From Acaryochloris marina MBIC11017 (GTDB lineage Bacteria; Cyanobacteriota; Cyanobacteriia; Thermosynechococcales; Thermosynechococcaceae), in assembly GCF_000018105.1 (NCBI RefSeq), contig NC_009925.1, positions 2,400,001 to 2,432,000 of the forward strand: DNA of 32,000 nucleotides. Direction: 5' to 3'. A program made the position numbers and the translations under genes. Numbering within the stretch: position 1 is the stretch's first letter; each line of letters opens with the position of its first letter. Below the pieces are notes generated by a model, which saw only the letters and a program-made list of their open reading frames with translations, did not search any database and had not been told where the DNA came from. Of this stretch, positions 4,255 through 24,193 are shown piece after piece.

Positions 4255-4256
4255 CT

Positions 4257-5879: not shown

Positions 5880-5931
5880 AACATAAATTCATGAATTTAT
5901 TAGTCATAATATGTGTCTGCCAAGAACTAAT

Positions 5932-6543: not shown

Positions 6544-6862
6544 ATTCTTAGATACCTCATTATTAATTTATTGGGCAAGGCATGATAACTCTGAGATTAA
6601 GTGTTATCCGACCCTATTCGTATAATTCCCAACGTAAGATTTCTTTGAATATCACCTATATAATTCCGAAGTGAGAATATTATCTGCTATTTACCTTGAA
6701 TTTTGTAGTTCTGCTTGAAAATATTCGAATTTAGTATTTTTTACGCTAGAAGTCTTTGCGAATTTCTTTGTTTATAGCTAACTCTTCCTAGCATTGATTT
6801 GACTTGGGTTAAATCAGGAAGCTTCTTTACAATGAGATGATTGTCACAGATCTCCTACCGCA

Positions 6863-7369: not shown

Positions 7370-7583
7370 ATGCTTGTACCTGCTAATTGACATTGGTCAG
7401 CACCATTCCAGAATCTCAGACATTTTGCTTTTGGTCCTTGTCATAATCTGCATCGAGAGACCAACGTAGCGGTTGATAGGTTAAACCTCATAAAGGGTTA
7501 GCATTCAGTTCCAAAGTCATCAAGTACTCATCATAATATTTCCCATCTTTGATAAAAGTTTCGTGTTCTGTACCGTATAGGAG

Positions 7584-8636: not shown

Positions 8637-8693
8637 GAGGTTTGAATACTGGGTCGAAGCAAGGGCTGCTTAATACACTACAGCGTTGTTATT

Positions 8694-8805
8694 AGACCTC
8701 TTGCAATATTCATTTCATGGTGTGCTACTAACTCAATGAATGCCGCGATCTGACTTAAATTTTGAATCCTCTACCATATCAGTAGCTGAATTATGCAAGA
8801 GGTCT
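8694..8805. mobile_element. 112-bp MITE-like element, copy B, nested in the IS leader
   Basis: It has the same AGACCTCTTGCA / TGCAAGAGGTCT termini as copy A. It is flanked by the direct repeat ATT (8691-8693 and 8806-8808). It sits between the transposase start (8636) and the IS inverted repeat (8811-8842). Confidence 0.7.
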
Positions 8806-8972
8806 ATTCTGTCAATGCGTAACTTCTACCGTAGATACGAAAGCTAAAAGATTGGTAAAGTCGAATGGCATTTTTTTGTTGAGTGATAACCGTTAAGTTG
8901 ACTCGTGAAGTGACCCCCAAGATTCGGACAAGTCCTTAAGCATCGTAATCTTGTACCGAATGAGGGAAATTA

Positions 8973-9278
8973 ATGTCATCAAAACGTCGTCAATATAGTG
9001 CTGAGTTCAAAGCTCAAGTGGTCTTACAATTGTTAAGCGGTGAAAAAACGAGCAGTGCATTGTGTCGCATCCATACCCTGCACTCTAGCCTCCTCAACCG
9101 CTGGCGCAAGGAATTTCTAGCGCACGCCAGTAGCATTTTTGAGAGTCAGAACAACGACGACAACGCTGAAGCGAAAATTGCTCAGTTAGAGCGTCTAGTC
9201 GGCCAATTGACGCTGCAATTAGAGATCGCAAAAAAAGCCTCAATGTCCTTACACCTAACCAAAAACGGCAGATGGTGA
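8973..9278 (+). CDS. IS3-family transposase OrfA (HTH)
   Basis: RRQYSAEFKAQVVLQLLSGEKTSSALCRIHTLHSSLLNRWRKEF followed by a leucine-zipper-like segment (IAQLERLVGQLTLQLEIAKKA). This is the standard IS3 OrfA. Confidence 0.85.
   Translation: MSSKRRQYSAEFKAQVVLQLLSGEKTSSALCRIHTLHSSLLNRWRKEFLAHASSIFESQNNDDNAEAKIAQLERLVGQLTLQLEIAKKASMSLHLTKNGRW
9230..9236 (+). promoter_or_regulatory. A AAA AAA slippery heptamer for -1 programmed frameshifting (OrfA to OrfAB)
   Basis: The A7 run at 9230-9236 lies in phase gcA AAA AAA Gcc of OrfA. The -1 frame is open from here into OrfB (AGC CTC AAT GTC ... ATG GTG AGA). Confidence 0.7.
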
Positions 9279-10129
9279 GACAGTTGCAGCAGGACTATTC
9301 CATTCGCCAAATTTGTCAGGTACTCAATTACCCACGCTCTCAAGTGTATTACCATGCCAGAGGCCAACCGGATGAGAGCGAACTAAAAGCGGCCATTGCT
9401 GGAGTTGCTGGAGCCTATCCGACTTATGGCTATCGTCGAATCACCGCCCAACTGCAGCGTCAGGGGTATTGCGTTAACCATAAACGCGTGGCTCGACTAA
9501 TGCGACAGATAGGGATTATGGCCAAGACCAAAGTCAAACGCAAACGCACCACCAATAGCGAACATTCGTTCCCTCGCTATGGCAATCGAGTGTTGAATCT
9601 CTCCATCGACCATCCTGAGCAGGTGTGGGTGGCGGACATCACGTACATTCGCTTACAGCAGGAGTTTGTCTATTTGGCCGTCGTGATGGATGTCTTTACT
9701 CGCGCCATTCGTGGCTGGCATCTGTCCCGCCATATCGACCAGCAACTAACGTTGAGGGCGTTGAACAAGGCGTTGGAGCGGGCAACGCCTGAGATTCACC
9801 ATTCTGACCAAGGGGTTCAGTATGCCGCTGCAGCCTATATGCAATTGCTCCAACAACACCAAGTGCAAATCAGTATGGCCGAGGTGGGACAGGCTTGGCA
9901 AAATGGCTATGCTGAGCGATTGATGAGAACGATAAAAGAAGAAGAGGTCGATTTATCAGACTATCGAAATTTTACTGAAGCGTATGAGCACATTGAGCAG
10001 TTTCTAGAAGATGTGTATATGCATAAGCGGATTCATTCATCACTGGGGTATTTGACACCCTGTGAATATGAGCAGCAGTGGAGACAACAGAACAATCACT
10101 ATTGTATGAATAAGGAGGATAGCGCTTAA
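9272..10129 (+). CDS. IS3-family transposase OrfB (rve integrase core)
   Basis: WVADITYIRL, HHSDQGVQYAA and NGYAERLMRTIKEEEV form the DDE(35)E integrase core typical of IS3. The frame is -1 relative to OrfA. Confidence 0.88.
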   Translation: MVRQLQQDYSIRQICQVLNYPRSQVYYHARGQPDESELKAAIAGVAGAYPTYGYRRITAQLQRQGYCVNHKRVARLMRQIGIMAKTKVKRKRTTNSEHSFPRYGNRVLNLSIDHPEQVWVADITYIRLQQEFVYLAVVMDVFTRAIRGWHLSRHIDQQLTLRALNKALERATPEIHHSDQGVQYAAAAYMQLLQQHQVQISMAEVGQAWQNGYAERLMRTIKEEEVDLSDYRNFTEAYEHIEQFLEDVYMHKRIHSSLGYLTPCEYEQQWRQQNNHYCMNKEDSA

Positions 10130-10165
10130 TTCATCTATTGCCCTGTCCGAATATAGGGGTTCACG

Positions 10166-10549
10166 TCATCGCCTAACACCAGCAGTCATCGTTGCCCGAT
10201 GTAATGCTTGACTCACCAGTACTCTGCCACAGCCACGTTTGCGGAATTCAGGCAGGACATAGAGACCCGCCAGATAGGCACGATGTTTTTCATTGATGGC
10301 TTCGTAGCGAGACAACCGGATAATGCCAATGAGCCGCTTGACTTGAAAGGCACCAAAAAAGCAACGATCCATACTCTCAGCCAATCGCACTGCAGTTTCA
10401 GCAAGATCGGGTTCCGTTTCGGGAAGTGAACCAAAAGCAGGAGGCCGTTCATGCAATGCACGTAGGCGTACTGAACGATATGCTTCAACATCAGCAGGTG
10501 TAAGCACCCGCGTACTGATGCTTGTCTCTATGACTGGGTTATCGTCCAT
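10166..10549 (-). pseudogene. GNAT N-acetyltransferase, probably C-terminally truncated next to the IS3 end
   Basis: 127 aa. The acetyl-CoA motif A region (LYVLPEFRKRGCGRVLVSQAL) is present, but the usual final beta strands after it are missing. The stop codon (10166-10168) is 2-3 bp from the IS3 terminus. No continuation is found on the other side of the IS. Confidence 0.5.
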
Positions 10550-11501
10550 ACAATAAACGTCATATTGCTAACTTTACAATGATCGGAGAATTGAGCATCA
10601 CTCTTTTGCACAGATATTTTTGTAAGTGCGGCGTTAGATTGAACCTATCAAAACGCGGTGAGAGATAGGAAAGGTAACCGTTAATATGGGGCAATCTCTC
10701 CAAGCCAGTGTGGTTATTGACTGACATTATCCTGGCATTGTTGAACTGGCCCATCAAATGACATCAGGATATAAAGCATTGAGTGCGATGGCTGTTAGTA
10801 AAGCCCAGGCTCTACCTGTAGGCCAATCAAAGAACATCGCAAAAAATATCTGCCAACAAGTCTACGATCAGATTCACCATAAACTTCAAGACCAAACGCA
10901 TCCTGTAATACGCGCACGGTAGATCAGTGAGGGGGCATCGATGACTTCTCCATGGGGTAGAATCAACCTGCTTTTTATCCAGGTTATTGAAACAAGCCTA
11001 GATTTTTTAGGTGATAGCGTGCTGATTTCATATTTACAATCAACATTGGTTCCTTATATATAAAATCTACAAAAAAGCTAATGTGGCAATATTTCCTTGT
11101 CTTATTTTTAGCCCACAAAGGCAATATATATGAGTTCTTAAAAAATTAGATATAGCTCATTCTTATATAAAAAATACCGGCCTAGGCATATAAAAAAGAT
11201 AGAGACATACCTCAGAGACAGGGGAAGATAAAAAGCCAAAAGCTTTTTACTGAAAGGTTTGCAGGGATTGACCAAGCCGCATCTCTGCCAAGGATCACGT
11301 CTAAAAATAGGAAGTATCACGTTTCTAGTGTGATCCAGATTAGATAAGAAGAAAGGCTTTACCGATAACTTATGAGAAGAGAGGAAAACAGATTGGAAGA
11401 AAGTTTATCGGTTCTCTATTAACAAGAAACAGAGACATTAAGAAGGCTTCATCTGGACAATCTCTGAGCAATCAGTCAACGTTCTAAATTTGATTTCTGT
11501 T

Positions 11502-11506
11502 GGAGG
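11502..11506 (+). promoter_or_regulatory. Shine-Dalgarno (GGAGG) for the cationic peptide gene
   Basis: GGAGG lies 8 nt upstream of the ATG at 11515. Confidence 0.6.
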
Positions 11507-11514
11507 AATCCATC

Positions 11515-11841
11515 ATGCTAAAGCCAATAAAAGTTACCCTGCTAGGTGTAATGGCAGCAACCACAACTGCACTCGCTATCCCTCAAGCAAATGCCTTCTC
11601 TACATCGGTTGGACAACAGCCTGAAACTTCTGAGCAAGTTGAAAACTCACTAGTGGCTTCTCGATGGCGAAAAAGACATAGAGTTCGTCGAGTTCGTCGA
11701 GTACGCTGGCGTTGGCGCCGAAAGTGGGTTTGCTTCAAGCGTCCAGTCGTCTTCTATCGCCATGGCCGTAAAATCGTGAAGTTCAAGCGGCACTGTCACT
11801 GGAAAAGATACCGAGTCCGTCATGGCGGACATCATTTCTAA
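11515..11841 (+). CDS. Secreted, extremely Arg/Lys/Trp/His-rich small protein (108-aa precursor)
   Basis: It has an ATG preceded by GGAGG and a Sec-type signal peptide, MLKPIKVTLLGVMAATTTALAIPQANA|F. A short acidic/neutral spacer follows. The 59-aa tail, RWRKRHRVRRVRRVRWRWRRKWVCFKRPVVFYRHGRKIVKFKRHCHWKRYRVRHGGHHF, has by hand count 19 R, 7 K, 7 H, 5 W, 2 C and no D or E. Confidence 0.6.
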   Translation: MLKPIKVTLLGVMAATTTALAIPQANAFSTSVGQQPETSEQVENSLVASRWRKRHRVRRVRRVRWRWRRKWVCFKRPVVFYRHGRKIVKFKRHCHWKRYRVRHGGHHF

Positions 11842-12027
11842 CCAGTGATGTTAATTGATAGCAACCTCAGGCCTGAGATTTATCGATAATGTCATTGATT
11901 AACATGAACTTTAGCAACTCTAGGAGATTAGGTTCTTCTGGAGTTGCTTTGGCGAAGTATAAGCGATCAACGAATTTTCTAACGGTTGGAATAGTTTCAA
12001 AAAATCGGGCATTGCTCCATGACGGGG

Positions 12028-13193
12028 CAGGGCTGTTTTAAGTTAGCAGCGAAAAAATGATGTCGACCCGATTAGCAAGCTTAGTCATAGCGGTTTTGAG
12101 GGATTGATAGCCGTTTAGACGCAGAATATTAATCACAATGGTTCTAAGCACTGACCAATTGAGCAGTGCTTGTTCATCCTCTAGTCGATAATCATCTTCA
12201 CCAAAGACCACATCCTTCGGCCAATGCAACCGATTTTCAATGCCCCAATGCTCTCGGACCAGAGATTGCCAATGATGGGGTGAGGTGGCAGCTGAACTGA
12301 TGTAATAGGCCGTGTTGTGATACGCCTTGCCTTGACGAGTACCCCATCGCTGGACACAAAGCACCGAGCGAATGGCTTCCCACTCTTGTAGGGCTATGCC
12401 GACAGGCTCATAAACCTGGATACACCGATGTTCCTCTCGTCCTCTACTCTGTATGGAGTGGGTATGCTCAGCCATGGGTTTAAGACACTCAAAGTAAGTC
12501 TGGAGGTGGTCGTAAAGACGGCCCTGATTGCGCTTAACGGCGATAAGATAGTCATTAACCGAAGCCACAACTTGCTGAAGTGTTTTTTTGGGCGTGTAAG
12601 GCATCCATGGTGATTAACAAGCCATCGAGTTGTAGTGTTTCCAATAGAGCCTGGACGACTTTGATTTCGCTATTATCCTCCTGAGTGAGGGCTTCGAGCT
12701 TGAGGGTGATGCCTGCTTCCACTGCGAATATACTCACCAATCCTACAAAACGCTGCTTGCCGTTTTCATCGGTGAGCCCCTGACAAATCCGTTTGCCATC
12801 CATGGATGCTGCATAATTATCGGGAGAGTGAGTCTGAGCTTTCGAGAGCATCCAAGCTTCAAATTGGTGGCTCAACGATTGGAAGTCAAGCCCCTTCATC
12901 ACGCGTCGAAAGGTACAGTGAGACGGAACTTGGAAGTTCTCCAGTCCCAACAGCTCACATAAAGGCTGCTGATAATCGCTCGTAAAAGTTTCTAAGGGAC
13001 AATACCCCTGGTATCCAGCGAGCATGCCCATCACCATCAAGAGCAATAGAAGCCATAACGGATGAGTACGACCACGGGCACTGCGGAAGTCAGGGACTTG
13101 CTTCAAGGTATCGATCAGATGGCTCATCGGTCTCTCTACTCTTATTCAGTAGAACCATCCTATTTTTTCTAGGAGGAACGTAAAACAACCCTG
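12028..13193 (-). mobile_element. ISAs1-family insertion sequence
   Basis: The terminal inverted repeats match at 15 of 17 positions. CAGGGCTGTTTTAAGTT at 12028-12044 pairs with the reverse complement of 13177-13193 (CAGGGTTGTTTTACGTT). An ISAs1-type transposase split into two frames lies inside. Confidence 0.8.
12038..13127 (-). pseudogene. ISAs1-family transposase, frameshifted in an A7 run
   Basis: ORFs 12555..13127 and 12038..12604 together give a standard ISAs1 (H-repeat-associated) transposase: DFRSARGRTHPL, ITMDALHAQKKT, DYLIAVKRNQ and HWGIENRLHWPKDVVFGEDD. The frames meet at the T7 run at 12583-12589 (A7 on the coding strand). Removing one A restores a single frame. Confidence 0.8.
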
Positions 13194-13196
13194 GGT

Positions 13197-13352
13197 TTAG
13201 GTGTCCTGTGAACTCGCGGTCTTTTCCCATTTACCGATAAATTTTTCAGCCTGTTGAGCCAGGATTTTCATCTTGGCTTCGGCAGACTCAGCCAATCCAA
13301 CAATCTCTTCTAGCTCAGAGTGCTTGGCAGTGTTTTGTTCTATCTGTGTCAT
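13197..13352 (-). CDS. Small helical hypothetical protein (51 aa)
   Basis: It is below the ORF-track length cutoff, so this is my own translation: MTQIEQNTAKHSELEEIVGLAESAEAKMKILAQQAEKFIGKWEKTASSQDT. It starts 41 bp downstream of the methyltransferase stop on the same strand. Its G+C looks host-like rather than island-like. Its stop is 3 bp from the ISAs1 inverted repeat. Confidence 0.35.
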   Translation of the reverse strand: MTQIEQNTAKHSELEEIVGLAESAEAKMKILAQQAEKFIGKWEKTASSQDT

Positions 13353-13393
13353 AACAGCTCACTCAAGCAACGGATTACGATTAATCTTTCAAC

Positions 13394-14500
13394 TTAACAA
13401 TTTAAGTTTGCCCAGATATCATACTCTTCACGAGGATTCGAAACTTTCGAATTAATATGAATAGCCTGTCGACGACCTTGTGAAGCAAAGCCTGCTGATT
13501 TAATATTTTTAATTTTCCATCTTGTCTGACATAAAGACTTTTTAATAATTTCTAAAGCATCAACATTTCTAGTATTAATACTACCAAATCTAATTACTAA
13601 TGTTGCATTTTGGGCACATATATCACTAGAATTTTCCCAGACTTTTTTTAGAGCCGATGAGAAATGATCTGGGCTCAAATGATTAAGTTGTTCTGGAGAA
13701 GAATAGTTGACTTGTGAAGAGTCACCCAAAAACCAAGATCTTAGCCACTGATCCGGAATATAACTACTCATACCATAGTAGGGAGGAGAAGTTATAACCC
13801 AATTAACCTGGCTTTGAATTTTCTGGAAGTACTTATTGTTACGACTATCACCTACAATGATTTTACCCATTCCTTGAGATTTTTCTAGGCCGAAGTATCG
13901 ATCAGCCTTTTCTCTAATAATTTCAATTACATCTACTTCTTCCGGTAATAACCCCTTGCGTTTCCAATAATTAACTGCATAGTTAGGTTTAGGAGCATAA
14001 GTACGTTGGGATTGATTTGAAAAGTATGACTGTTTTGACTTTGGACGAGGGCCATGTAAAGCACCCAAGATAATAGCTCTAAGTGCTTTTCTAGAATCAG
14101 AACGACAGTTTCGAAGAAAAGATTCTCGAAACTTACAGAGACTATTCAAAACATTTTTGTGAAAGGCTAATTCCCAAAACTCTCCTGTTGGAATGTCAGA
14201 TGGCTCTTCAGCATTTTTCAAAATTTTAATTGCAGTGCTAACAATATGACCAGGCTTAATATTAACTAGTTTTGCTTCAGAAATAGCTGTTGCAACTGGG
14301 CTGCTGTCAATACCGATAGAAGGCATACCTAACAACCTACTCGCATATATGGTTGTACCTCTACCACAAAAAGGATCTAGGACCCACTCTCCCCGGCTTC
14401 CATGCTCTTCAAGAATCGAGTATGGAAAGTCAAGAGGGAACATTGTGAAGTATGGGCAAATTCCATTAAGCCTAGTTTTTGCTTTTAAGGTTTTATCCAC
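13394..14500 (-). CDS. N6-adenine / N4-cytosine DNA methyltransferase (SPPY type, motif I before motif IV)
   Basis: 368 aa. The SAM motif I region, FPLDFPYSILEEHGSRGEWVLDPFCGRGTTIYASRLLGMPSIGIDSSPVA, is at the N-terminus. The catalytic motif IV, VITSPPYYGMSSY, is about 190 aa later. It apparently starts at a GTG at 14500, 22 bp after the HerA stop. It is very AT-rich. Confidence 0.8.
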   Translation of the reverse strand: MDKTLKAKTRLNGICPYFTMFPLDFPYSILEEHGSRGEWVLDPFCGRGTTIYASRLLGMPSIGIDSSPVATAISEAKLVNIKPGHIVSTAIKILKNAEEPSDIPTGEFWELAFHKNVLNSLCKFRESFLRNCRSDSRKALRAIILGALHGPRPKSKQSYFSNQSQRTYAPKPNYAVNYWKRKGLLPEEVDVIEIIREKADRYFGLEKSQGMGKIIVGDSRNNKYFQKIQSQVNWVITSPPYYGMSSYIPDQWLRSWFLGDSSQVNYSSPEQLNHLSPDHFSSALKKVWENSSDICAQNATLVIRFGSINTRNVDALEIIKKSLCQTRWKIKNIKSAGFASQGRRQAIHINSKVSNPREEYDIWANLNC

Positions 14501-14522
14501 TCAACTAAATCGCTGAAACTAT

Positions 14523-16565
14523 CTACTTCTTACGAATCCATGTTTTACCTTGTTTCTTAAATGACTCCCATCGCTTACCTTGTGGACCTAAGACATTGTT
14601 AAGCGTAGGAGCAACTAATTTATATGGCATATCCTCTGAAACATCTATTTGTTTGGGTAAAGCACTTTTGATTATAGCCATTACAGAACCCCATGCAATT
14701 CCTTCACCTTCGAGGTTCTCCATAACTTTAAGATTATTTTTAATCGCTTGGATGGCTTGCCGCTGACAGACATCTAACACATCCATGGGCAAGCCAGAAT
14801 TTTCATCAATCATGCCTTCTTGAAATTTTTTCTTGAGCTGTTGTGCATAATTCTTAAGTAGTCCAGAGCTGTAGTCCGGATCACGAAGATTATGCATTTT
14901 TTCGAACAAAAGAACGCGCAGTGCTATTGGAAAAGGCTTTCCACTGGAAGAACTCCAGAAAACACCTTGTCCTGGGATAGGCTCATTCAATAAGGCACTT
15001 AAAATATCCTGACTAAAGTGAGCATTAGCATTTTTAATATTATTGAGGTCTGAAGCAGATAGTAAATGAAAAATAAACCAGTTATCTCCTTGACTTAAAA
15101 TCTCGTTGGAGATACTACCTGGCTGTTGAGTAATTAAAACGGCACCTAAATCATATTTTCGCCCTTCTTTGACCCATGCAATATATGGCTCAGCTCCTGT
15201 AGCTCTTTCACTTAAAACTGATTGAGCTTCTTCAACCACTGCAAGAGTTGGTATTGTTTCAGGGTTAGCTGCTGTAAACTGTTCTTGGTTATGGTCAAAT
15301 ATTCGACGTAGAATCAAGCTAGAAAGGATAAGAGATTGGCTACCTCTCATTTGAGAGATATCAACAATACATAATTTTCCATTTTTTAAAGCATCTAACA
15401 GCATGTCTAATAACTGACTTGTATTGTCATGCAGCATTCTGACAATCGTTGTCATGTTTGCTCTTGCAGCTAATGCCTCTGCATCTTGTTGGTCAGGTTC
15501 CAAACCCAAGATATTTTTGACTTCATCAAGCTCTGCTTGATTTCCATTCTTGTGGACAAGATCAACTAATCGAGACCAATTATCTTGCCTCAAACCACTT
15601 AATTTACGTATATTTTGTTGGCCTTGCTTTTCAGGACTAATTGCTATGGATATTACATCACTTGGGTTTAACCTACGAATATCAAGTTTGATACCGCCTG
15701 CAACAAAAGAATCATAAAAATTACTAGGACCTCGCCTATTAGTGAAAACCACTAATTTATTTTCCAATTCTTTTACATCGCATAAACCAGGACGACCTTT
15801 ATCATCTGGCCAAAAATATTCTCCATCCGGGTCAAACAGAATAGTCCCTACTGGAACCCTTCTTCCTTGCCTCTTTTCTACTACAGGATCAGATTTATAC
15901 AATTCACTGAATAGCAGTTTATTTAAGTTTGATTTTCCAAAGCCTGCTCTTGCAAAAATAAATGAGCGCCTTGAAACCAAATTTTCCATAGGAAATTTAA
16001 TCAGTACTTCAGGCTCTTTAATTTGCATCCATGGCAGTGGCTCTAATAATGTACTGGTTGAAGAGTAGATATACTCTCCCAATGCAAAATGACCTATAGC
16101 AGCTCCTTGAACATTATGGCTAGCTATCTCTCTTAAAACATCTCCAGATAAGAATGCTACTAAACTACCAACATGAGGGAGTCGTCGATGAGATGCAACA
16201 AATGTTAGCTTGCCATCATCTATAATTCTTAAAACTCCAAGTACTCGAATATCTACTTGATATTTTAAATACTGCTCCCTTAAGTCTTCTGGCACTGCCC
16301 GACTTTCTTGCATAGCCCGGATATTAAATTCTTCTCCCACGCCTGAAGACAGCTTTCCTGAAGAGGAAAGGGATGTAATTCTTCCTAACACAGCTTCATC
16401 TTGCGTTTCCAGTTGTACCAGAAGGAACTGGCCATGCATGGGGATACTTTGAAAGTCATTTCGGTAGGGCAGAACCAGATCTGCATGGAACTCTAAACCT
16501 CCTTTACTGAATCCTCGAAAAACGCCAATAACTTCGTTAGGTGGAAAAAGTTCAATACTAGACAT
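14523..16565 (-). CDS. HerA-like (DUF87/FtsK-HerA superfamily) hexameric ATPase
   Basis: 680 aa. It has an N-terminal HAS-barrel-like region (VIGVFRGFSKGGLEFHADL...GQFLLVQL...AVLGRITSL), Walker A FARAGFGKSN, ILFDPDGEY, Walker B LAVVEEAQSVL and the HerA-typical EGRKYDLGAVLITQQPGSI. A C-terminal extension of about 120 aa is unrecognised. Confidence 0.8.
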   Translation of the reverse strand: MSSIELFPPNEVIGVFRGFSKGGLEFHADLVLPYRNDFQSIPMHGQFLLVQLETQDEAVLGRITSLSSSGKLSSGVGEEFNIRAMQESRAVPEDLREQYLKYQVDIRVLGVLRIIDDGKLTFVASHRRLPHVGSLVAFLSGDVLREIASHNVQGAAIGHFALGEYIYSSTSTLLEPLPWMQIKEPEVLIKFPMENLVSRRSFIFARAGFGKSNLNKLLFSELYKSDPVVEKRQGRRVPVGTILFDPDGEYFWPDDKGRPGLCDVKELENKLVVFTNRRGPSNFYDSFVAGGIKLDIRRLNPSDVISIAISPEKQGQQNIRKLSGLRQDNWSRLVDLVHKNGNQAELDEVKNILGLEPDQQDAEALAARANMTTIVRMLHDNTSQLLDMLLDALKNGKLCIVDISQMRGSQSLILSSLILRRIFDHNQEQFTAANPETIPTLAVVEEAQSVLSERATGAEPYIAWVKEGRKYDLGAVLITQQPGSISNEILSQGDNWFIFHLLSASDLNNIKNANAHFSQDILSALLNEPIPGQGVFWSSSSGKPFPIALRVLLFEKMHNLRDPDYSSGLLKNYAQQLKKKFQEGMIDENSGLPMDVLDVCQRQAIQAIKNNLKVMENLEGEGIAWGSVMAIIKSALPKQIDVSEDMPYKLVAPTLNNVLGPQGKRWESFKKQGKTWIRKK

Positions 16566-16590
16566 AGTATTTTTTACTTCAGAAATTTAA

Positions 16591-17736
16591 TTAATAGCGG
16601 TTCTGTGCCGGATCTGGATCTTGTAATCTTGCCATATCTAAAACCACTGCCTCTTGACCAAGGATATTTCTAATACCGTTAAATATTTGATCCTGTAAAA
16701 CATCAAAGTCGAAATCAACTAAAGCAGCATTTTCATGTGCTTTTTGAAGACAACGAGGATAAAAAGGAACAGGAAAACCATTAATTGCATCTGATAATAA
16801 ATAACCAATTATGGCTTGAGCTTCGTGGGCCTGAGGCAAAAATATATCCACAGGCCATATTGGATCGTGAGATTTGTTTCCAAATTTGATGAAGAACATT
16901 TTACCACCTACAAACTTATTGATTTCGCCACCTTGTTCTAGTGCGATATCATCATTTCTGGCATATTCTGACCAGATATATGCTTTTTCCTCTATGTCAG
17001 GAGGTATGTCAACGTAAGCTGGATACTCTGACGTTAAAATATTTTCTAAAGCCATTGCTAAGCGATAACGCGTTAGAACTTTACTATGCTTTGCAAATCC
17101 TACTAAATAAATCTTTCTACGTGATTTTCTTCGATGGCTATCTATCGCTTCCTGAATTCCTTTTCGATAATGCTGAAAAAGTCCTTCCTTAAAAACTTTA
17201 CTGCGCAGTAGTCCATCAAAGACAATTAACGTATCTACAGCAAATTCCTTTTCTCGAATTACTGAAAATAGTACAGCCCATTCCACTAACTCTCGATACA
17301 CCTGAACCCAGCTAGTGCTTGTTAGTTCTCCATCATCATTACTACGAATCATAGGGCTAAGATCGCTAATATGTCTGACTCCCAAGAAGTCCATCATCTT
17401 ACCCAATGCAGTTAAGGGTTCGCCATTTTTATCGAATTGTTGATTACTGAGCGAACTAACTTTTGTAGTTGGCGTAATAGCTTCAAGACAATACTCATTA
17501 TTGCTAGAGTCAACTACCCGAATGAGTTGAACTAAGAAAGGGTCGTATTGGATACGATTATTACCCCCATCAGTTCCGACTAGTGAAACAGAGGTCGTTG
17601 TTCGGGCTTGGATTCGTCTCACAGCACTTTTCAAAGGCCGGATCTCAGATCGTAATTGCTCTAATATTTCCCTATCTTCTGCAATGCGATTAGCAATCTC
17701 TGTACTGAGGTGTTCATGGCTTTCAGGGTCTATCAT
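16591..17736 (-). CDS. NurA-domain nuclease
   Basis: 381 aa. Blocks in NurA order are SLVGTDGGNN (first catalytic Asp), TLIVFDGLLRS, IYLVGFAKHSKV and FPVPFYPRCLQKAHENAAL. Its stop lies 25 bp upstream of the HerA-like start, and the nurA-herA adjacency is the canonical pairing. Confidence 0.72.
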   Translation of the reverse strand: MIDPESHEHLSTEIANRIAEDREILEQLRSEIRPLKSAVRRIQARTTTSVSLVGTDGGNNRIQYDPFLVQLIRVVDSSNNEYCLEAITPTTKVSSLSNQQFDKNGEPLTALGKMMDFLGVRHISDLSPMIRSNDDGELTSTSWVQVYRELVEWAVLFSVIREKEFAVDTLIVFDGLLRSKVFKEGLFQHYRKGIQEAIDSHRRKSRRKIYLVGFAKHSKVLTRYRLAMALENILTSEYPAYVDIPPDIEEKAYIWSEYARNDDIALEQGGEINKFVGGKMFFIKFGNKSHDPIWPVDIFLPQAHEAQAIIGYLLSDAINGFPVPFYPRCLQKAHENAALVDFDFDVLQDQIFNGIRNILGQEAVVLDMARLQDPDPAQNRY

Positions 17737-18008
17737 GGATCTGCCTTTTCAAACGCTCTCAACATGATGTGAACATCGATTGCTATCACATTGAGGTTGA
17801 TAACTACCTCTTTGCTCTATTTAGAAGGCTAAGTTCAAAATAAATCTGGATAATTTCCGTAAATTTTGACCTTACTTTGTTTTTTAGAAGCTACGTTCAT
17901 TAAAAGTTGAGAATAAAAGTATTCAAACTTAGAAGGCTTTTCCCTCTCGAAAATTGAAGATTTCTTTAATCTATCCTTGAATCTCTAAATATGCGGTACG
18001 TCCTAGGG

Positions 18009-18045
18009 AAAAAAATATCTCCCCAACATCCGTCAGGGAGATATT
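18009..18045 (-). terminator. Rho-independent terminator of the transketolase-family gene
   Basis: On the minus strand there is a 10-bp perfect stem, AATATCTCCC (complement of 18036-18045) pairing with GGGAGATATT (complement of 18014-18023). The loop is 12 nt and a T7 run follows (A7 at 18009-18015 on the plus strand). It sits 23 bp after the stop at 18068. Confidence 0.8.
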
Positions 18046-18067
18046 CCAAGAGTTAATCAAATTAAGC

Positions 18068-19969
18068 TTAGCTAGCGAGAGACTTGACGGTCTTCATAAT
18101 GCCAACGGGGTCAATCCCTTGATGAGGGAATTGCTCCCAAAGACCGCCGCAGCCTTCTTCATGGGTGCCTAAGTAAGCAAACTTAGGAGATAGTCCTCGC
18201 TCCAGCAGCCAAGAACCGAAGCGGCTACCTAATCCAGTCCGACGGTTAAAGGATTCAACGACCACCACAAAGGGCGCTGCGCCAATCTTCTTCATCATGT
18301 CTTCGTCGACGACATTGAGGGTGGACTTGTTGATGAGACCCACATCAATGCCTTCCTTCTTCAGACGCTCAACCGCATCCAAAGACCGATAGAGGGCTTC
18401 ACCAAAGCTGACAATATAGCCTGCTGTTCCTTCTCGTACCACTTCGTCCTTGCCAGGGGTAAAGGTGTAATTGCCTGCATACAGCTCACCGCCATTAGCG
18501 TCTGTCAGGAGGGGTACCTTAGAGCGAGTAGAGAAGATAAACCGGAGACCCGAATTATCGAAAACCGACTTTACACAGGCCTTCATTTGGTTGGCATCGG
18601 CAGGGAAATAGAGGCGAGTCTCATAACCATCATCCAAGCCATTATCGGCAAACATATTGTTAATACCGAAGTGGCAGGTGTTATCGGCCATATCGTCAAT
18701 GCCCGCATGGGAGAAGTGACAGAGCAAGTTGGACTTGTTCAAGCGAGCCATGGTGATCTCAGAGATACACATCTCCAAAAAGGCACTAAAGGTGGCAAAG
18801 ATGCCCTGCTTGCCTGCAGCCATGCCGAAACCAGCAGCAGCAGACAGGTTGCCTCGCTCTTGAATCCCACCACTGATAAAAATTTCAGGATTAGCAGCTC
18901 GAATTTTATGGAGACCACAGGAGCCTTCCAGGTCGCTATCCACGACGAGCACCTTAGCCTTACGGTCGGCTTCGCTCATGCCGCTGAGGACTTCTACCAC
19001 CGCATCACCGAAGACGTTCCGGTTGGAGTCGTACTTCTCAGAAGCCCCGAGGAACGTATAGTCCTGGCTAGGCTTAACCACACTCTTCAGATTGGAAACC
19101 GCATCAGAATGACCGCGAGCCTCTAGATACTTAAGGGCGGCATCCACAGAGATCACGTCATGACCATGGTTAGATCCTTCTAGACCGTCGATCCCCACAC
19201 ACATGGCCCGCTTGTTGATAACGGCCACGGGACCGGGGGTGTTAATCGCTTCACAAATGCGAGCGTAGAGGCCATCAATATCTTCGCCATCGCCTTCTAG
19301 AACTTTGAGGCCATGACCTTCCAAAGTCTTTTTGACACTAAAGCCAGGTAGATAGTCAGAAGGGCTACCGGCAATGGTGATGTCATTATCATCAATCAGC
19401 AGCTTGACGTTAATCTGCTGGGCAACGGCTAGGCGGGCCGCTTCTGCATCATTTCCTTCTTGCTGAGAACCATCAGACCCAAGACAGAAGGCTGTTTTAC
19501 CAGGATTTGCGAGGGCAACGCCATTCACATAGGGCCACATATGTCCCAAACGACCGGAGCTGAACTTAACCCCAGGGGTGAGACCCAGTTCGGGGTGACC
19601 AGGCAAGGTGGAGTTGGCAGCCCGATAACTCATCAACTGCTCGGCAGGTAAGGAGCCTTCTAGAGTAGACATCAAGTATTGCGTCGCGACTCGGTGCCCA
19701 GCTTCGTCAAAAAAGATCGGAACATACTTGTCAGCACTGCCCCGAAAGAGCGCATCCAAAATCATCACTTCGGGAACCGTGTCGTAGGGGCCACCGGTAT
19801 GTCCACCCACACCTCGGGCTGCCCCCGTGGCGGTAAAAAAGACAATGGCATCACGGCAAAGCTGAATATTCGATTTGAGGGTCTCCCGTTGCTCCGGGGT
19901 GAGGGTGGGATTGCTAGCGTCCAGGGTAAGCGGTTTATAGGCCTTTAAATCAATCGGGAATGTTGTCAT
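18068..19969 (-). CDS. Transketolase-family thiamine-diphosphate enzyme (divergent, 633 aa)
   Basis: LPGHPE, the TPP/metal motif GSDGSQQEGNDAEAARLAVAQQINVKLLIDDNDITIAG, a pyrimidine-binding middle domain (GIQERGNLSAAAGF) and a C-terminal domain are present. The N-terminal region (GGHTGGPYDTVPEVMILDAL) differs from canonical TktA. Confidence 0.75.
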   Translation of the reverse strand: MTTFPIDLKAYKPLTLDASNPTLTPEQRETLKSNIQLCRDAIVFFTATGAARGVGGHTGGPYDTVPEVMILDALFRGSADKYVPIFFDEAGHRVATQYLMSTLEGSLPAEQLMSYRAANSTLPGHPELGLTPGVKFSSGRLGHMWPYVNGVALANPGKTAFCLGSDGSQQEGNDAEAARLAVAQQINVKLLIDDNDITIAGSPSDYLPGFSVKKTLEGHGLKVLEGDGEDIDGLYARICEAINTPGPVAVINKRAMCVGIDGLEGSNHGHDVISVDAALKYLEARGHSDAVSNLKSVVKPSQDYTFLGASEKYDSNRNVFGDAVVEVLSGMSEADRKAKVLVVDSDLEGSCGLHKIRAANPEIFISGGIQERGNLSAAAGFGMAAGKQGIFATFSAFLEMCISEITMARLNKSNLLCHFSHAGIDDMADNTCHFGINNMFADNGLDDGYETRLYFPADANQMKACVKSVFDNSGLRFIFSTRSKVPLLTDANGGELYAGNYTFTPGKDEVVREGTAGYIVSFGEALYRSLDAVERLKKEGIDVGLINKSTLNVVDEDMMKKIGAAPFVVVVESFNRRTGLGSRFGSWLLERGLSPKFAYLGTHEEGCGGLWEQFPHQGIDPVGIMKTVKSLAS

Positions 19970-20199
19970 AGAAGCTGTTCCTTAAATGGGTCAATGTGAA
20001 GAGTTATAACGGGCTAGCCTGGCTATCGTACCATTTTGTCTGAAGCCCTCCAGACGTTTTTGGGTACCGACTTTGATATCTGAATCGTAGGCAGCTTCGG
20101 GCTGATCTCAAGGTCGAGAATCAAGGTTAGAGGCCAACCAGTATTCTTGAAGTTGCCGCTTATAGTTAAGTATTTTTACCTATTATAGTCGGTCGTTGT

Positions 20200-20763
20200 T
20201 CAAACGCTGACTAAGGGTTGTAATGCTGATGCGATCTCATCCGTAATTTCTGACTCCGGGCGACTCCCATCAATTTCAATCAAACATTGGCGACGGCGGT
20301 AAAAGTCAATCAGCGGAGTGGTTTGGTCGTTGTAAATCTGTAAGCGCTGTCGGATCAGATCTTCACTATCATCCTGCCGACCTCGCTTCAGCATTCGCTC
20401 GATTAATAAATCTTCGGGGGTTTCAAAATACACGACTTGCCCATAGAGCTGGCCCATAATTTGGAGTAAGGTATCCAGCGCCTGGGTTTGAGCGAGATTC
20501 CGGGGAAAACCATCCAAAATCCAACCATTCTGGGTGGCGGGTGACCCAAAGCTTTCCCGCATCAAACCTACCATTAAGGTATCTGGAACGAGTTCACCCG
20601 CTTCCACATGAGTTTGGGCTTGTTTACCTAAGTCAGATTGGGTTGCGATCGCATCGCGGAGTAAATCACCTGTCGAAATACTGGGAATCTGCCAACGCGC
20701 AGCCCCTGCTTGAGCTTGTGTACTTTTACCAGAACCGGGCGGGCCGAGAAATACAAGTCGCAT
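20200..20763 (-). CDS. adk: Adenylate kinase (short-LID type)
   Basis: MRLVFLGPPGSGKSTQA P-loop, STGDLLR, GWILDGFPRNLAQ and a short LID (KRGRQDDSED). I use the ATG (complement of 20761-20763); the 26-codon extension in the track looks spurious. Confidence 0.88.
   Translation of the reverse strand: MRLVFLGPPGSGKSTQAQAGAARWQIPSISTGDLLRDAIATQSDLGKQAQTHVEAGELVPDTLMVGLMRESFGSPATQNGWILDGFPRNLAQTQALDTLLQIMGQLYGQVVYFETPEDLLIERMLKRGRQDDSEDLIRQRLQIYNDQTTPLIDFYRRRQCLIEIDGSRPESEITDEIASALQPLVSV
20645..20652. repeat. HIP1 palindrome GCGATCGC
   Basis: Exact octamer read in the sequence. Confidence 0.95.
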
Positions 20764-21137
20764 CGTTTTAGTGGGGAATAACAACACAGTCGCTAATGGC
20801 CAAGGAGCCAGCATCCACAAGAAAGGGATACACCAACTCAACAGCTATGTGGTCTCATATTCTGACTAGAACAAGCGGAGTTAGGTCTCTCACCGATTAG
20901 AAAATCCAAACTAACTCATAACCTATACTTAATAAGAATTTCAAGATTTTTTCCGTAACATCCCCTTACTATACACCTAATCGGAATTCATAACGGACCA
21001 TCCCCAACGTCGCAAAATTACGGGCAAGCCCAGCAAATTTCTGCGCTATCGCTTGAGAATGGTCTAGGCAGGTGTACCGCTTTACGTCATGCTAGAAATC
21101 GTCAGTTTTCGCAAGCAGCTTTTTTAGGAGGTTCAGT

Positions 21138-21845
21138 ATGAGCGCAGTTGATCCCGTTAAGTTAATGAAACAACAGGTGGGTAAAGCCGCTGCCGATCGG
21201 GTTCAGTCTGGCTCAATCGTGGGGTTAGGCACTGGGTCTACCACCGCCTTTGCGATTCAGTTTTTGGGTGATCGGATTAAGTCAGGTGCATTAACGGATA
21301 TCAAAGGTATTCCCACTTCCTTCCAAGCTTCTGTGTTAGCGAAGCAGTATGGCATTCCCCTCACCACCCTAGATGAAGTGGATCGGATTCATATCGGCAT
21401 TGATGGTGCCGATGAAGTGGATCCGCAGAAGAATTTAATCAAAGGTGGTGGCGCAGCTCATACCCGCGAAAAGGTCGTGGATTCCCTAGCTGAGCAGTTT
21501 ATTGTGGTGGTCGATCAATCCAAAATTGTCGATAAATTAGGGTCCACTTTCCCGGTCCCGGTGGAAGTATTGCCAATGGCGATCGCACCAGTCGTCAAAG
21601 CCTTAGAGAAGCTCGGTGGTAAGCCCGAACTGCGGATGGGTATCAAAAAAGACGGTCCTGTGATTACCGACCAGGGCAATATGGTGCTGGACGTCACCTT
21701 TAGCGATATTCCTAATCCCCCCGAACTGGAGAAAACCATTAACAATATTCCAGGAGTTCTGGAAAACGGCATCTTCGTGGGCATGACTGACATTGTTTTA
21801 ATTGGCGAAATCAAAGATGGCAATCCCACCGTCCGTGAGATGTAA
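21138..21845 (+). CDS. rpiA: Ribose-5-phosphate isomerase A
   Basis: 235 aa. [21 protein letters not shown] and [15 protein letters not shown] are the RpiA signature blocks. Confidence 0.92.
21579..21586. repeat. HIP1 palindrome GCGATCGC
   Basis: Exact octamer read in the sequence. Confidence 0.95.
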
Positions 21846-24081: not shown

Positions 24082-24193
24082 AGGGCAAGCCCCCCTGAGG
24101 CAACAACAGCCTTGGACCTAGTATACTCCGGTTCTCCATCGGAGTTTAGGGATTATCCTGCCTAGCCTTCTTAGTGCTCTATTCAGCTAGACC

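What the first reader, a model, noticed from the sequence alone, without database searches (positions are those of the whole stretch)
13394..17736. AT-rich operon of NurA nuclease, HerA ATPase and SPPY DNA methyltransferase: candidate methylation-coupled HerA/NurA defence system
Three co-directional minus-strand genes are packed with 25-bp and 22-bp spacers, which implies one transcript.
- The first gene has NurA blocks (GTDGG, VFDGLL, GFAKHS, QKAHENAA).
- The second is a HerA-type ATPase (HAS-barrel-like N-terminus, Walker A GFGKSN, DPDGEY, Walker B VVEEAQ, EGRKYDLGAVLITQQPGS).
- The third is an amino-methyltransferase (DPFCGRGTT plus TSPPYYG).

NurA-HerA is known as an end-resection machine in archaea and some bacteria. 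HerA also partners different effectors in the anti-phage SIR2-HerA and DUF4297-HerA systems. HerA/DUF87-like ATPases occur in modification-dependent DndFGH-type restriction as well.

I do not recall a described system in which a NurA-HerA pair is hard-wired to a DNA methyltransferase. The logical reading is a restriction-modification-like module. The methyltransferase would mark self DNA, and the translocating HerA hexamer would feed unmarked DNA to NurA for degradation.

The foreign base composition, the absence of HIP1 sites and the position beside an IS-rich plasticity zone fit a mobile defence island rather than a housekeeping repair locus.
Basis: partly seen in the sequence, partly recalled or inferred. 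Interest (0 to 1): 0.9.

Follow-up and report, generated by a model that had tools for sequence, protein, structure and literature searches.

The report
Methylase-linked NurA–HerA (TdpAB-like) defence operon
Three tightly packed genes in the cyanobacterium Acaryochloris marina encode a DNA-degrading motor-plus-nuclease pair and a DNA methylase that travel together between distant bacteria, and they most likely form a restriction-modification-like immune system that has not been tested as one.

Summary
Three minus-strand genes lie at the stated coordinates with 25- and 22-bp spacers.

- **Gene 1** is a NurA-superfamily nuclease. It is below the Pfam threshold, but its model's best structural match is TdpB, followed by archaeal NurA.
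- **Gene 2** is a HerA/DUF87 ATPase whose closest solved relative, by sequence and by fold, is TdpA.
- **Gene 3** is a circularly permuted N6_N4 DNA methyltransferase with intact FxGxG and SPPY motifs.

TdpAB is the restriction half of TdpABC, a phosphorothioate-based R-M-like system. Here a methylase takes the place of the sulfur-modifying enzyme TdpC.

The triad is a real unit:
- In 70 assessable genomes from more than 15 phyla the methylase is adjacent in 60.
- The three proteins co-evolve (r = 0.86–0.95).
- Proteins at least 85% identical occur across phyla.
- The module is AT-richer than its host in 31 of 46 genomes.
- Its neighbours often include known defence genes.

It matches no PADLOC 2023 or NCBIfam 2026 system model.

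The Thermus ICETh1 tdtA operon has the same gene order, but was assigned to DNA donation.

Caveats: a methylase-less subclade exists, the methylase shows no hypervariable specificity region, and there are no experiments.

Verdict: a probable new variant of a known kind, of moderately high interest.

The parts
16591..17736 (-). First gene: a NurA-superfamily (TdpB-like) nuclease of 381 aa. Candidate catalytic residues are D56 (GTDGG), E85 (CLEA), D174 (FDGLL) and H334/E335 (AHENAA).
   Evidence: - ORF confirmed.
- Pfam NurA 17.1 bits, below the cutoff of 21.
- Best PDB hit of the family profile is TdpB, E=0.011, aligning FDGLL with KDGRL and AKHSKVL with TKRSRLL.
- AF2 model pLDDT 74.8.
- Foldseek: TdpB E=4e-11 (TM 0.56-0.59), NurA 3tai E=1e-4, then PIWI and EndoV RNase-H-like folds.
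- D56, E85, D174 and H334 are invariant in 22 homologs.
14523..16565 (-). Second gene: a TdpA-like HerA/DUF87 hexameric-translocase-type ATPase of 680 aa.
- β-rich N-terminal region (about 1-150).
- Walker A GFGKSN (208-213).
- Walker B VVEEAQ (443-448).
- Fast-evolving C-terminal domain (about 556-680) of helices plus a terminal β-hairpin.
   Evidence: - DUF87 76.5 bits.
- Best PDB hit is TdpA, 1.7e-18 with the single sequence and 4.3e-24 with the profile, against 4.4e-16 for Sulfolobus HerA.
- AF2 model pLDDT 76.9, with the C-terminus at pLDDT 75-93.
- Foldseek ranks 1-6 are TdpA chains at E about 7e-24.
- C-terminal mean pairwise identity is 0.36, against 0.77-0.79 for the rest.
13394..14500 (-). 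Third gene: an N6_N4-family DNA methyltransferase of 368 aa (AM1_2410).
- Motif I DPFCGRGTT lies at residues 42-50.
- Motif IV SPPY lies at residues 238-241.
- The order is circularly permuted relative to β-class enzymes.
   Evidence: - N6_N4_Mtase 51.9 bits, covering only the motif X/I part of the profile.
- PADLOC MTase_II models.
- Alignment to T. thermophilus TTHA0409 (2zie) places query 205-247 on chain 15-56 (SPPY) and query 20-85 on chain 219-284 (FxGxG). This shows the permutation.
- Both motif blocks are the most conserved in 53 homologs, at 0.87 and 0.90.
- Locus name.
14501..14522 (-). 22-bp spacer between the ATPase and methylase genes
   Evidence: Coordinates. No terminator-like site above chance within the operon.
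16566..16590 (-). 25-bp spacer between the nuclease and ATPase genes
   Evidence: Coordinates. Spacing of 7-28 bp is typical of homologous loci.
17737..18067 (-). Upstream intergenic region, the presumed promoter region of the operon. No element was demonstrated.
   Evidence: It is the gap between the NurA-like start and the transketolase-like gene. The consensus promoter scan gives nothing above shuffles.
13250..17900 (.). AT-rich block (GC 0.37-0.40) coextensive with the triad
   Evidence: Composition profile. The same tendency holds family-wide: the triad is AT-richer than its flanks in 31 of 46 loci, with a mean difference of -0.054.

Best explanation
I read this as a three-gene, restriction-modification-like immune module that is the base-methylation counterpart of the phosphorothioate system TdpABC.

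**Proposed mechanism**
- The methyltransferase marks host DNA. The SPPY motif suggests N4-cytosine, but N6-adenine is not excluded.
- The TdpA-like HerA ATPase assembles as a ring on DNA and translocates it using ATP.
- It feeds the DNA to the bound TdpB-like NurA nuclease, which degrades DNA lacking the mark.
- Methylated self DNA is spared, either because the mark blocks loading or translocation or because it blocks nuclease activation.
- The fast-evolving C-terminal domain of the ATPase is a candidate site for DNA or mark recognition, or for interaction with phage proteins.

**Shown**
- Gene identities.
- Operon-like packing.
- Co-inheritance and co-evolution of the three genes.
- Rampant horizontal transfer.
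- Frequent defence-gene neighbours.
- Specific kinship of both effector proteins to TdpA and TdpB.

**Inferred**
- Formation of the complex.
- Processive degradation.
- The methyl mark as the self signal.
- The base that is methylated.
For: **1. Kinship to TdpAB**
- ATPase to TdpA: best PDB hit by sequence and by fold.
- Nuclease to TdpB: best hit by profile and by fold.
- TdpABC is listed as a PT-based R-M system, with tdpC as its single modification gene.

**2. Unit character**
- Of 70 assessable loci from the species-level genome scan, 55 have NurA-HerA-MTase in this order and 60 have the MTase adjacent.
- A lineage only 30% identical keeps the triad.
- Distance matrices correlate at r=0.95 (NurA-HerA) and r=0.86 (each against the MTase), Mantel p<0.0005.

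**3. Mobility**
- The family was found in 226 of 185,579 species genomes.
- Identity is 62-72% across more than 15 phyla.
- One cluster at 85% identity or more spans Proteobacteria, Nitrospirota, Planctomycetota and Chloroflexota.
- The triad is AT-richer than its flanks in 31 of 46 loci.

**4. Defence neighbourhoods**
- Wadjet JetCD, pPIWI_RE_Z and HipA_2 in Spirosoma.
- GmrSD_N in a Dehalococcoidia MAG.
- Among 92 immediate neighbours: Tiamat x5, Type I and Type III R-M, DpdJ, AbiEi, MzaA, SngC and WYL, plus integrases.

**5. Intact catalytic motifs**
- All three proteins keep catalytic motifs that are conserved family-wide.

**6. R-M-like decay and modularity**
- An orphan copy of the MTase lies between IS elements on an Allochromatium plasmid.
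- A homolog sits beside an anti-phage dGTPase and a giant AAA protein on a conjugative plasmid.
Against: - There is no experiment on any member of this family.
- A recent subclade (95-99% identical NurA) and one singleton have intact NurA-HerA but no homologous MTase within 10 kb. The nuclease pair is therefore not obligatorily lethal without an adjacent methylase.
- The region between motif I and SPPY is not hypervariable. Residues 141-180 are among the most conserved. Classical R-M target-recognition domains diversify, so this is atypical.
- In the architecturally identical Thermus ICETh1 operon, the methylase mutant is viable with minor phenotype, and the operon was assigned to DNA donation.
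- It is unclear how a ring ATPase that grips the backbone would sense a base methyl group.
- In A. marina no other defence gene flanks the locus.
- No copy of the nuclease was found on about 72,000 plasmids or about 50,000 phages.
- The TdpAB mechanism itself is cited from my memory of An et al. 2025 (Nat Chem Biol 21:1160). That paper is not in the held library.
Confidence: 0.6

Rival explanations
1. It is a defence module, but methylation is not the self/non-self mark. NurA-HerA would be triggered by something else, such as free DNA ends, a phage protein or replication intermediates, as in the SIR2-HerA and DUF4297-HerA systems. The methylase would then serve another role, for example epigenetic regulation of the operon, protection against a different nuclease, or blocking invader methylation.
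For: - The MTase-less subclade is intact and still spreading between genera.
- There is no hypervariable specificity region in the MTase.
- Distant NurA-HerA pairs occur with other partners, namely DruA/DruE-like and MmcB-like.
- The fast-evolving ATPase C-terminal domain would suit a sensor of phage factors.
Against: - The MTase is adjacent in 86% of loci and co-evolves with the pair.
- The closest characterised relatives, TdpAB, work with a cognate DNA-modification enzyme.
- Both MTase catalytic motifs are under strong conservation.
Confidence: 0.17
2. It is a DNA-donation or DNA-processing module of a mobile element, like the tdtA operon of Thermus ICETh1. There a NurA-like nuclease and the HerA-family ATPase TdtA are required to export chromosomal DNA to recipient cells ('transjugation'), and the methylase is accessory.
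For: - The gene order and sizes match: NurA-like 377 aa, TdtA 568 aa, N4/N6 methylase 410 aa.
- There is genetic evidence for DNA donation.
- Integrases (3) and a RepA (1) occur among the 92 immediate neighbours.
Against: - Orthology to the Thermus genes could not be tested.
- Most loci are not in recognisable ICEs, and no conjugation or secretion genes are conserved next to the triad. No neighbour family recurs in more than 5 of 92 neighbours.
- The family is absent from about 72,000 plasmids.
- The Thermus phenotype could itself be a by-product of a defence nuclease. That last point is my inference.
Confidence: 0.1
3. It is a housekeeping NurA-HerA double-strand-break end-resection machine, as in archaea and Deinococcus, that merely happens to lie next to a methylase.
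For: - NurA and HerA folds, with archaeal HerA-NurA repair complexes among the structural matches.
- One distant relative sits beside RecQ and FtsK.
Against: - The family is present in only about 0.12% of species genomes.
- It shows inter-phylum identity of up to 99%.
- Its composition is AT-shifted.
- The MTase linkage is conserved.
- Defence genes are frequent neighbours.
- No Mre11 or Rad50 gene is nearby in the window.
Confidence: 0.03

Closest known systems
TdpABC phosphorothioate-based R-M-like system (TdpAB cryo-EM structures 8wet, 8wfd, 8y1k; An et al. 2025, Nat Chem Biol)
   Same: - It is a three-gene module with one DNA-modification enzyme, a HerA-family ring ATPase (TdpA) and a NurA-fold nuclease (TdpB).
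- Both effector proteins of the window have TdpA and TdpB as their best solved relatives, by sequence and by fold.
- The Walker A context GFGKSN.NK and the KEGRKY...TQ.P.SI..EILSQ block are shared.
   Different: - The modification gene is an N6_N4 SAM-dependent methyltransferase, not the PT-forming TdpC.
- Identity to TdpA is only about 21%, and to TdpB about 15-17%.
- The ATPase carries an extra, fast-evolving C-terminal domain of about 120 aa.
- Hosts are mesophiles across many phyla rather than extremophiles.
- A base methyl group lies in the groove and not on the backbone, so the sensing step cannot be the same.
tdtA operon of Thermus thermophilus HB27 ICETh1 (TTC1877-TTC1880; Blesa et al. 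2017, PMC5365140)
   Same: The order is the same: NurA-like (377 aa), then the HerA/FtsK-family ATPase TdtA (568 aa), then an N4/N6-family methylase (410 aa). The genes are co-transcribed and lie on a mobile element.
   Different: - It includes an upstream type IIG enzyme, Tth111II.
- Its assigned function is DNA donation in transjugation.
- TdtA is shorter and membrane-associated.
- The methylase mutant has only minor effects.
- Sequence-level orthology was not testable here.
Archaeal and Deinococcus NurA-HerA end-resection complex
   Same: It uses the same two folds and adjacent genes, with a ring translocase feeding DNA to a NurA dimer (PMC9960219 and PMC12977600 listed).
   Different: - It is housekeeping and linked to Mre11-Rad50 in archaea, with no methylase.
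- The window proteins are closer to TdpAB.
- The window's NurA-like protein fails the Pfam NurA threshold.
SIR2-HerA (Nezha) and DUF4297-HerA anti-phage systems
   Same: A HerA hexamer acts as the platform for an effector in phage defence. These are structural matches at E about 1e-17, and PADLOC HerA models hit the C-terminal ATPase half.
   Different: - The effector there is a SIR2 NADase or a DUF4297 nuclease, not NurA.
- There is no modification enzyme.
- NCBIfam HerA_antiphage scores 54.8 bits against a cutoff of 800.
DndFGH/SspFGH, and MADS (methylation-associated defence system)
   Same: These are modification-linked defence systems that include a DUF87/HerA-type ATPase. The window ATPase gives weak PADLOC hits to DndH (2.7e-4) and mad8 (6.9e-10).
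   Different: - They have multi-domain or multi-gene architectures with other nucleases and no NurA.
- The hits are generic P-loop similarity.
- The comparative-genomics papers on HerA/FtsK 'capture systems' never mention NurA.

Membership tests
NurA nuclease family (Pfam PF09376) | Score at or above the Pfam gathering threshold | tested here: not met
   17.1 bits against a cutoff of 21, matching only profile positions 3-140 of 254. Some close family members do carry a precomputed PF09376 hit (P0042, P0275).
NurA nuclease family (Pfam PF09376) | RNase-H-like NurA fold | tested here: met
   AF2 model (pLDDT 74.8). Foldseek gives NurA 3tai at E=1e-4 and 3taz at 2.9e-3, followed by PIWI and EndoV folds.
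NurA nuclease family (Pfam PF09376) | Conserved acidic and His catalytic residues | tested here: inconclusive
   D56, E85, D174 and H334 are invariant in 22 homologs. D174 aligns with the DG motif of TdpB. No residue-level superposition on a NurA active site was done.
HerA / DUF87 ATPase (PF01935) | DUF87 domain above threshold, with Walker A and Walker B motifs | tested here: met
   76.5 bits against 23.2. G208-N213 (GFGKSN) and E445/E446 are invariant.
HerA / DUF87 ATPase (PF01935) | N-terminal HAS-barrel | tested here: inconclusive
   PF09378 scores 14.9 bits against 25.2. The model shows a β-rich N-terminus but with low pLDDT.
TdpABC system | TdpA-like ATPase and TdpB-like nuclease encoded side by side | tested here: met
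   Best PDB relatives by sequence and by fold. The genes are adjacent.
TdpABC system | TdpC phosphorothioate-forming modification enzyme | tested here: not met
   The third gene is an N6_N4 methyltransferase. No other modification gene is present in the operon. The locus therefore works like TdpABC but is not a member.
N6_N4 DNA methyltransferase (PF01555) | Family score above threshold, with SAM-binding FxGxG and catalytic (S/D/N)PP(Y/F) motifs | tested here: met
   51.9 bits against 26.7. DPFCGRGTT and SPPY are present and conserved. The order is permuted relative to β-class TTHA0409.
Classical Type II R-M | A cognate site-specific restriction endonuclease next to the MTase | tested here: not met
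   No REase-family hit. The partners are NurA-like and HerA.
Anti-phage HerA systems (SIR2-HerA, DUF4297-HerA) | SIR2 or DUF4297 effector, and a HerA_antiphage equivalog score | tested here: not met
   NF042943 scores 54.8 against 800 and NF042944 scores 28.8 against 850. There is no SIR2 or DUF4297 gene.
ICETh1 tdtA-type operon | Co-directional NurA-like, then HerA-family ATPase, then N4/N6 methylase | tested here: met
   Gene order and sizes were compared with the published description.
ICETh1 tdtA-type operon | Sequence orthology to TTC1878-1880, and a role in DNA donation | not testable with these tools
   The Thermus sequences could not be retrieved.
Known defence systems in PADLOC v2.0.0 and NCBIfam 20.0 | A system-specific model hit for every component | tested here: not met
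   The NurA-like protein has no hit in PADLOC or NCBIfam. The ATPase has only generic HerA, mad8 and DndH hits.

The most novel reading that the evidence does not exclude
This would be a new class of restriction-modification. A processive ring translocase plus NurA-fold nuclease (TdpAB type) would read base methylation, rather than backbone sulfur, to spare self DNA. It would use a methylase whose specificity region is conserved rather than diversifying. The whole three-gene cassette moves almost unchanged between more than 15 bacterial phyla. If so, the Thermus 'transjugation' operon would be reinterpreted as a member or cousin of this immune family.
Probability: 0.45. Interest if true: 0.75.

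Novelty: new variant of a known kind. Interest (0 to 1): 0.6.

Why it matters
If the reading is right, HerA/NurA-type motors are a general restriction 'chassis' that can be coupled to different self-marking chemistries. TdpABC uses phosphorothioate, and this family would use methylation.

That would raise a concrete mechanistic question: how does a backbone-gripping ring ATPase sense a base methyl group?

It would add a compact, widely transferred three-gene system to defence-finder catalogues. About 3,400-4,000 homologs of each effector protein (90%-identity clusters) are already in public protein data.

It would also prompt re-examination of the Thermus ICETh1 DNA-donation operon as a possible defence system with a side effect on gene transfer.

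Mesophilic, culturable hosts make the system directly testable. They include Cupriavidus cauae, Bordetella genomosp. 2, Methylococcus capsulatus Texas and Fibrisoma montanum.

Tried and rejected
- **Single-sequence PDB search of the NurA-like protein.** It gave only spurious designed-armadillo hits. The family profile and the fold search were needed.
- **Literature searches**. I found no named NurA-HerA-methylase defence system. One search was badly formed, since NurA was absent from every listed paper. The HerA/FtsK 'capture system' papers and a 2026 domain-centric discovery paper do not cover it. The primary TdpABC paper is not in the held library.
- **Thermus orthology.** Cluster look-ups on distant representatives returned no names. 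The plasmid tblastn with HerA found only a Pontibacillus hit.
- **SACS+NOV_C protein as a replacement partner.** I rejected this idea for the MTase-less loci. The protein is PADLOC TmtA (which I recall as the Tiamat system), a separate adjacent system.
- **Hypervariable target-recognition domain in the MTase.** I expected one and did not find it.
- **Co-adaptation between the ATPase C-terminal domain and the MTase.** The partial Mantel r was 0.39 in the full set, but it was not specific in the non-redundant set. I report this as inconclusive.
- **Promoter and terminator scans.** They gave nothing above shuffled expectation.
- **First neighbour batch.** It exceeded the residue limit and was rerun with immediate neighbours only.
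- **PHROGs.** No phage family matches the nuclease or the ATPase C-terminal domain.

Full report
**1. Observation**

- 16591-17736(-), 381 aa
- 14523-16565(-), 680 aa
- 13394-14500(-), 368 aa, with a GTG start

They are separated by 25 and 22 bp. Every quoted motif is present in the translations.

GC is 0.37-0.40 across the block, against 0.47-0.52 on both sides.

HIP1 (GCGATCGC) occurs 8 times in the window, against 0.28 expected from shuffles. None lies between 863 and 20644. The absence inside the triad is real, but only about one site would be expected in 4.3 kb. The HIP1-free stretch also covers a normal-GC transketolase-like gene, so this point is weak.

The low-coordinate side is IS-rich:
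- DDE_5, DDE_3, DDE_Tnp_1 and rve transposases
- a split DDE_Tnp_1 at 12038-13127

The high-coordinate side is housekeeping: a transketolase-like gene, adk, rpiA, a PLP enzyme, pilD and gidB. No other defence gene is recognisable in the window.

The protein matches identify the host as Acaryochloris marina. The methylase is AM1_2410.

**2. What the genes are**

*Gene 2, the ATPase.*
- It is a solid DUF87/HerA ATPase (76.5 bits).
- Its best solved relative is TdpA. E is 1.7e-18 with the single sequence and 4.3e-24 with a 32-sequence profile, against 4.4e-16 for Sulfolobus HerA.
- The AF2 model (pLDDT 76.9) hits six TdpA chains first (E about 7e-24). Next come archaeal HerA from HerA-NurA complexes, then SIR2-HerA and DUF4297-HerA.

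*Gene 1, the nuclease.*
- It fails the Pfam NurA threshold (17.1 against 21 bits).
- It has no PADLOC, NCBIfam or PHROGs hit.
- A profile of 22 homologs finds TdpB as the top PDB sequence (E=0.011). The alignment pairs FDGLL with KDGRL and AKHSKVL with TKRSRLL.
- The AF2 model (pLDDT 74.8, pTM 0.75) matches TdpB at E=4e-11 (TM 0.56-0.59) and archaeal NurA 3tai at E=1e-4. Argonaute PIWI and EndoV folds follow.
- D56, E85, D174 and H334 are invariant.

*Gene 3, the methylase.*
- It is an N6_N4 methyltransferase (51.9 bits).
- Alignment to the β-class Thermus enzyme TTHA0409 shows that the SPPY block and the FxGxG block are swapped in order. The enzyme is therefore circularly permuted, with about 190 residues between motif I and motif IV.
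- From general knowledge of the family, SPPY is more typical of N4-cytosine enzymes. One UniRef label says cytosine-N4. The target base was not determined here.

**3. It is a unit, and a mobile one**

- The NurA-like protein has 3,421 homologs in the large protein collection, and many are about 70% identical across phyla.
- A scan of one genome per species found relatives in 226 of 185,579 species.
- Of the 80 loci fetched, NurA-like and HerA are adjacent wherever the sequence allows a judgement.

Among the 70 assessable loci:

| Arrangement | Loci |
|---|---|
| MTase immediately downstream, same strand | 55 |
| MTase immediately upstream (a 42%-identical variant) | 4 |
| MTase downstream, opposite strand | 1 |
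| MTase within 10 kb but not adjacent | 3 |
| No homologous MTase | 7 |

- Pairwise-distance matrices correlate at r=0.95 (NurA-HerA) and r=0.86 (each against the MTase), Mantel p<0.0005.
- A marine lineage only 30% identical still has the full triad.
- Thirty-seven loci share at least 85% NurA identity. They span Alpha-, Beta-, Gamma- and Deltaproteobacteria, Nitrospirota, Planctomycetota and Chloroflexota.
- The triad is AT-richer than its flanks in 31 of 46 loci and GC-richer in 2.
- The nuclease has no tblastn match in about 72,000 plasmids or about 50,000 phages. Transfer therefore seems to be by chromosomal islands.
- In Acaryochloris the locus is collinear with a sister-lineage MAG across 13256-21845, at 84-87% DNA identity. 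It is not a very recent arrival in this genus.

**4. Neighbourhoods**

- In Spirosoma the triad lies between pPIWI_RE_Z/PARP genes and HipA_2/Wadjet JetCD.
- In a Dehalococcoidia MAG it lies near GmrSD_N.
- Among 92 immediate neighbours from 46 loci, PADLOC models at E<=1e-10 hit Tiamat TmtA (5), MTase_II, WYL (2), Type III MTase and REase, Type I MTase, DpdJ, AbiEi, MzaA and SngC.
- Pfam adds ResIII (4), phage integrase (3), RepA (1) and Tse2 ADP-ribosyltransferase (2).
- No neighbour family recurs in more than 5 of 92 neighbours, so the system is self-contained at three genes.
- I had no matched genomic background. The enrichment is judged against the general expectation that defence genes make up a few per cent of a genome.

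**5. Exceptions and objections**

- Six of the seven assessable MTase-less loci, together with L060 (whose contig is too short to be assessed formally), form one subclade with 95-99% identical NurA. It is itself 95-96% identical to MTase-bearing loci. The seventh, L074, is a singleton.
- Those subclade loci carry Tiamat upstream, or WYL upstream plus DUF3223 downstream.
- A near-identical relative, L033, has the 42% MTase variant 9 kb upstream. A distal methylase is therefore possible in the others, but this is unproven.
- The MTase diverges faster than its partners (mean identity 0.58 against 0.70-0.71), but the divergence is not concentrated in a hypervariable domain. Residues 141-180 are highly conserved.
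- The most variable element of the whole system is the ATPase C-terminal domain (0.36 identity against 0.77-0.79). It is confidently modelled as helices plus a terminal β-hairpin. TdpA is shorter (586 aa), and its PDB sequence alignments to the window ATPase end near query position 560. I take this to mean that TdpA lacks the domain.
- A test for specific co-adaptation of that domain with the MTase was inconclusive.

**6. Precedents**

*TdpABC.*
- It is listed as a PT-based R-M system with one modification gene, tdpC, found in extremophiles.
- Its TdpAB complex with DNA has been solved (PDB titles).
- I recall the detailed mechanism, in which PT in self DNA inhibits translocation and nuclease activity, from An et al. 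2025. That paper is not held.

*Thermus thermophilus ICETh1 tdtA operon.*
- It is described as Tth111II (type IIG), then a NurA-like gene (377 aa), then TdtA (HerA/FtsK family, 568 aa), then an N4/N6 methylase (410 aa).
- The nuclease and the ATPase are required for DNA donation. The methylase has only minor effects.
I could not obtain the Thermus sequences to test orthology.

*Catalogues and literature.*
- No PADLOC v2.0.0 or NCBIfam 20.0 model is specific for this family.
- No paper found names a NurA-HerA-methylase defence system.

**7. Modularity of the parts**

Distant NurA-HerA pairs (30-35% identity) occur in several contexts:
- with the MTase
- beside RecQ and FtsK
- between DruA and a DruE-like helicase
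- after an MmcB-like nuclease gene

The MTase family also occurs without NurA-HerA:
- A 52%-identical orphan lies between IS200/IS605 TnpB and IS607 on Allochromatium pAt1.
- A 40%-identical copy lies between an anti-phage dGTPase and a 1,416-aa AAA protein on a conjugative Bradyrhizobium plasmid.

Orphan methylases and partner swapping are what one expects of R-M-like modules. That last point is my inference.

**8. Verdict**

- The R-M-like interpretation is the best-supported one (about 0.6) but remains untested.
- The system works like TdpABC, with methylation in place of phosphorothioation. It is not a member of that system, because the modification enzyme differs.
- It shares its architecture with the ICETh1 tdtA operon.
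- I classify it as a new variant of a known kind and rate interest at 0.6.

Noticed in passing
L090:548-8894: A distant NurA-like + DUF87 pair (32% identical, with a Pfam NurA hit) sits between a DruA gene and a convergent DruE-like giant helicase (DEAD/YjiV_N/MZB). This looks like a Druantia-like locus with an embedded NurA-HerA module.
   Followed up: no
L086:6277-10251: A distant NurA-HerA pair (34% identical) is preceded by an MmcB-like PD-(D/E)XK nuclease gene that overlaps the NurA start. A Dam-like MethyltransfD12 lies 5.5 kb upstream, and Cas6 and HD genes are nearby.
   Followed up: no
L027:6544-9855, L043:6426-9884, L044:6632-9886, L033:6487-9858: Tiamat (TmtA, SACS + NOV_C, about 1,100 aa) lies immediately upstream of NurA-HerA in a Burkholderiales subclade. 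In that subclade the methylase is missing or displaced.
   Followed up: partly
L034:5359-6105 (also L048:7073-7819, L060:3549-4295): In MTase-less loci a 248-aa DUF3223 protein occupies the position of the methylase just downstream of HerA, and a WYL-domain gene lies upstream. Whether DUF3223 is a functional replacement is unknown.
   Followed up: no
L091:5055-8089 (Allochromatium tepidum plasmid pAt1): A 52%-identical orphan copy of the methylase lies directly after an IS200/IS605 TnpA/TnpB pair and before IS607 and IS1595 elements. There is no NurA-HerA on the plasmid.
   Followed up: partly
L092:5598-12324 (Bradyrhizobium sp. 27S5 conjugative plasmid): A 40%-identical homolog of the methylase sits between an annotated anti-phage dGTPase and a convergent 1,416-aa AAA-domain protein. 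This may be another effector paired with this methylase family.
   Followed up: no
window 11500-11841 (+): A 113-aa ORF has a signal-peptide-like N-terminus and an extremely basic Arg/Trp-rich repetitive C-terminus (RRVRRVRWRWRRKW...). It lies in an AT-rich gap between IS elements.
   Followed up: no
window 863-20644: There is a 20-kb stretch without any HIP1 (GCGATCGC) site, although the window has 8 against 0.28 expected from shuffles. The stretch covers the IS zone, the triad and a normal-GC transketolase-like gene.
   Followed up: partly
window 12038-13127 (-): A DDE_Tnp_1 transposase is split into two overlapping ORFs, with a DDE_Tnp_1_assoc N-terminal part and a DDE C-terminal part. It is either a frameshifted or decaying IS copy or uses programmed frameshifting. 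It abuts the methylase end of the operon.
   Followed up: no
window 29000-32000: A second strongly AT-rich region (GC 0.30-0.34) at the right end of the window contains a TPR-repeat protein (30157-31479). A strong AT- and GC-skew excursion occurs at about 24000-25000, around the pilD-like gene.
   Followed up: no
window 18068-19969 (-): The gene directly upstream of the operon is a divergent transketolase-like protein. All three transketolase domains score low (37-57 bits). It is conserved next to the triad in the sister Acaryochloris MAG.
   Followed up: no
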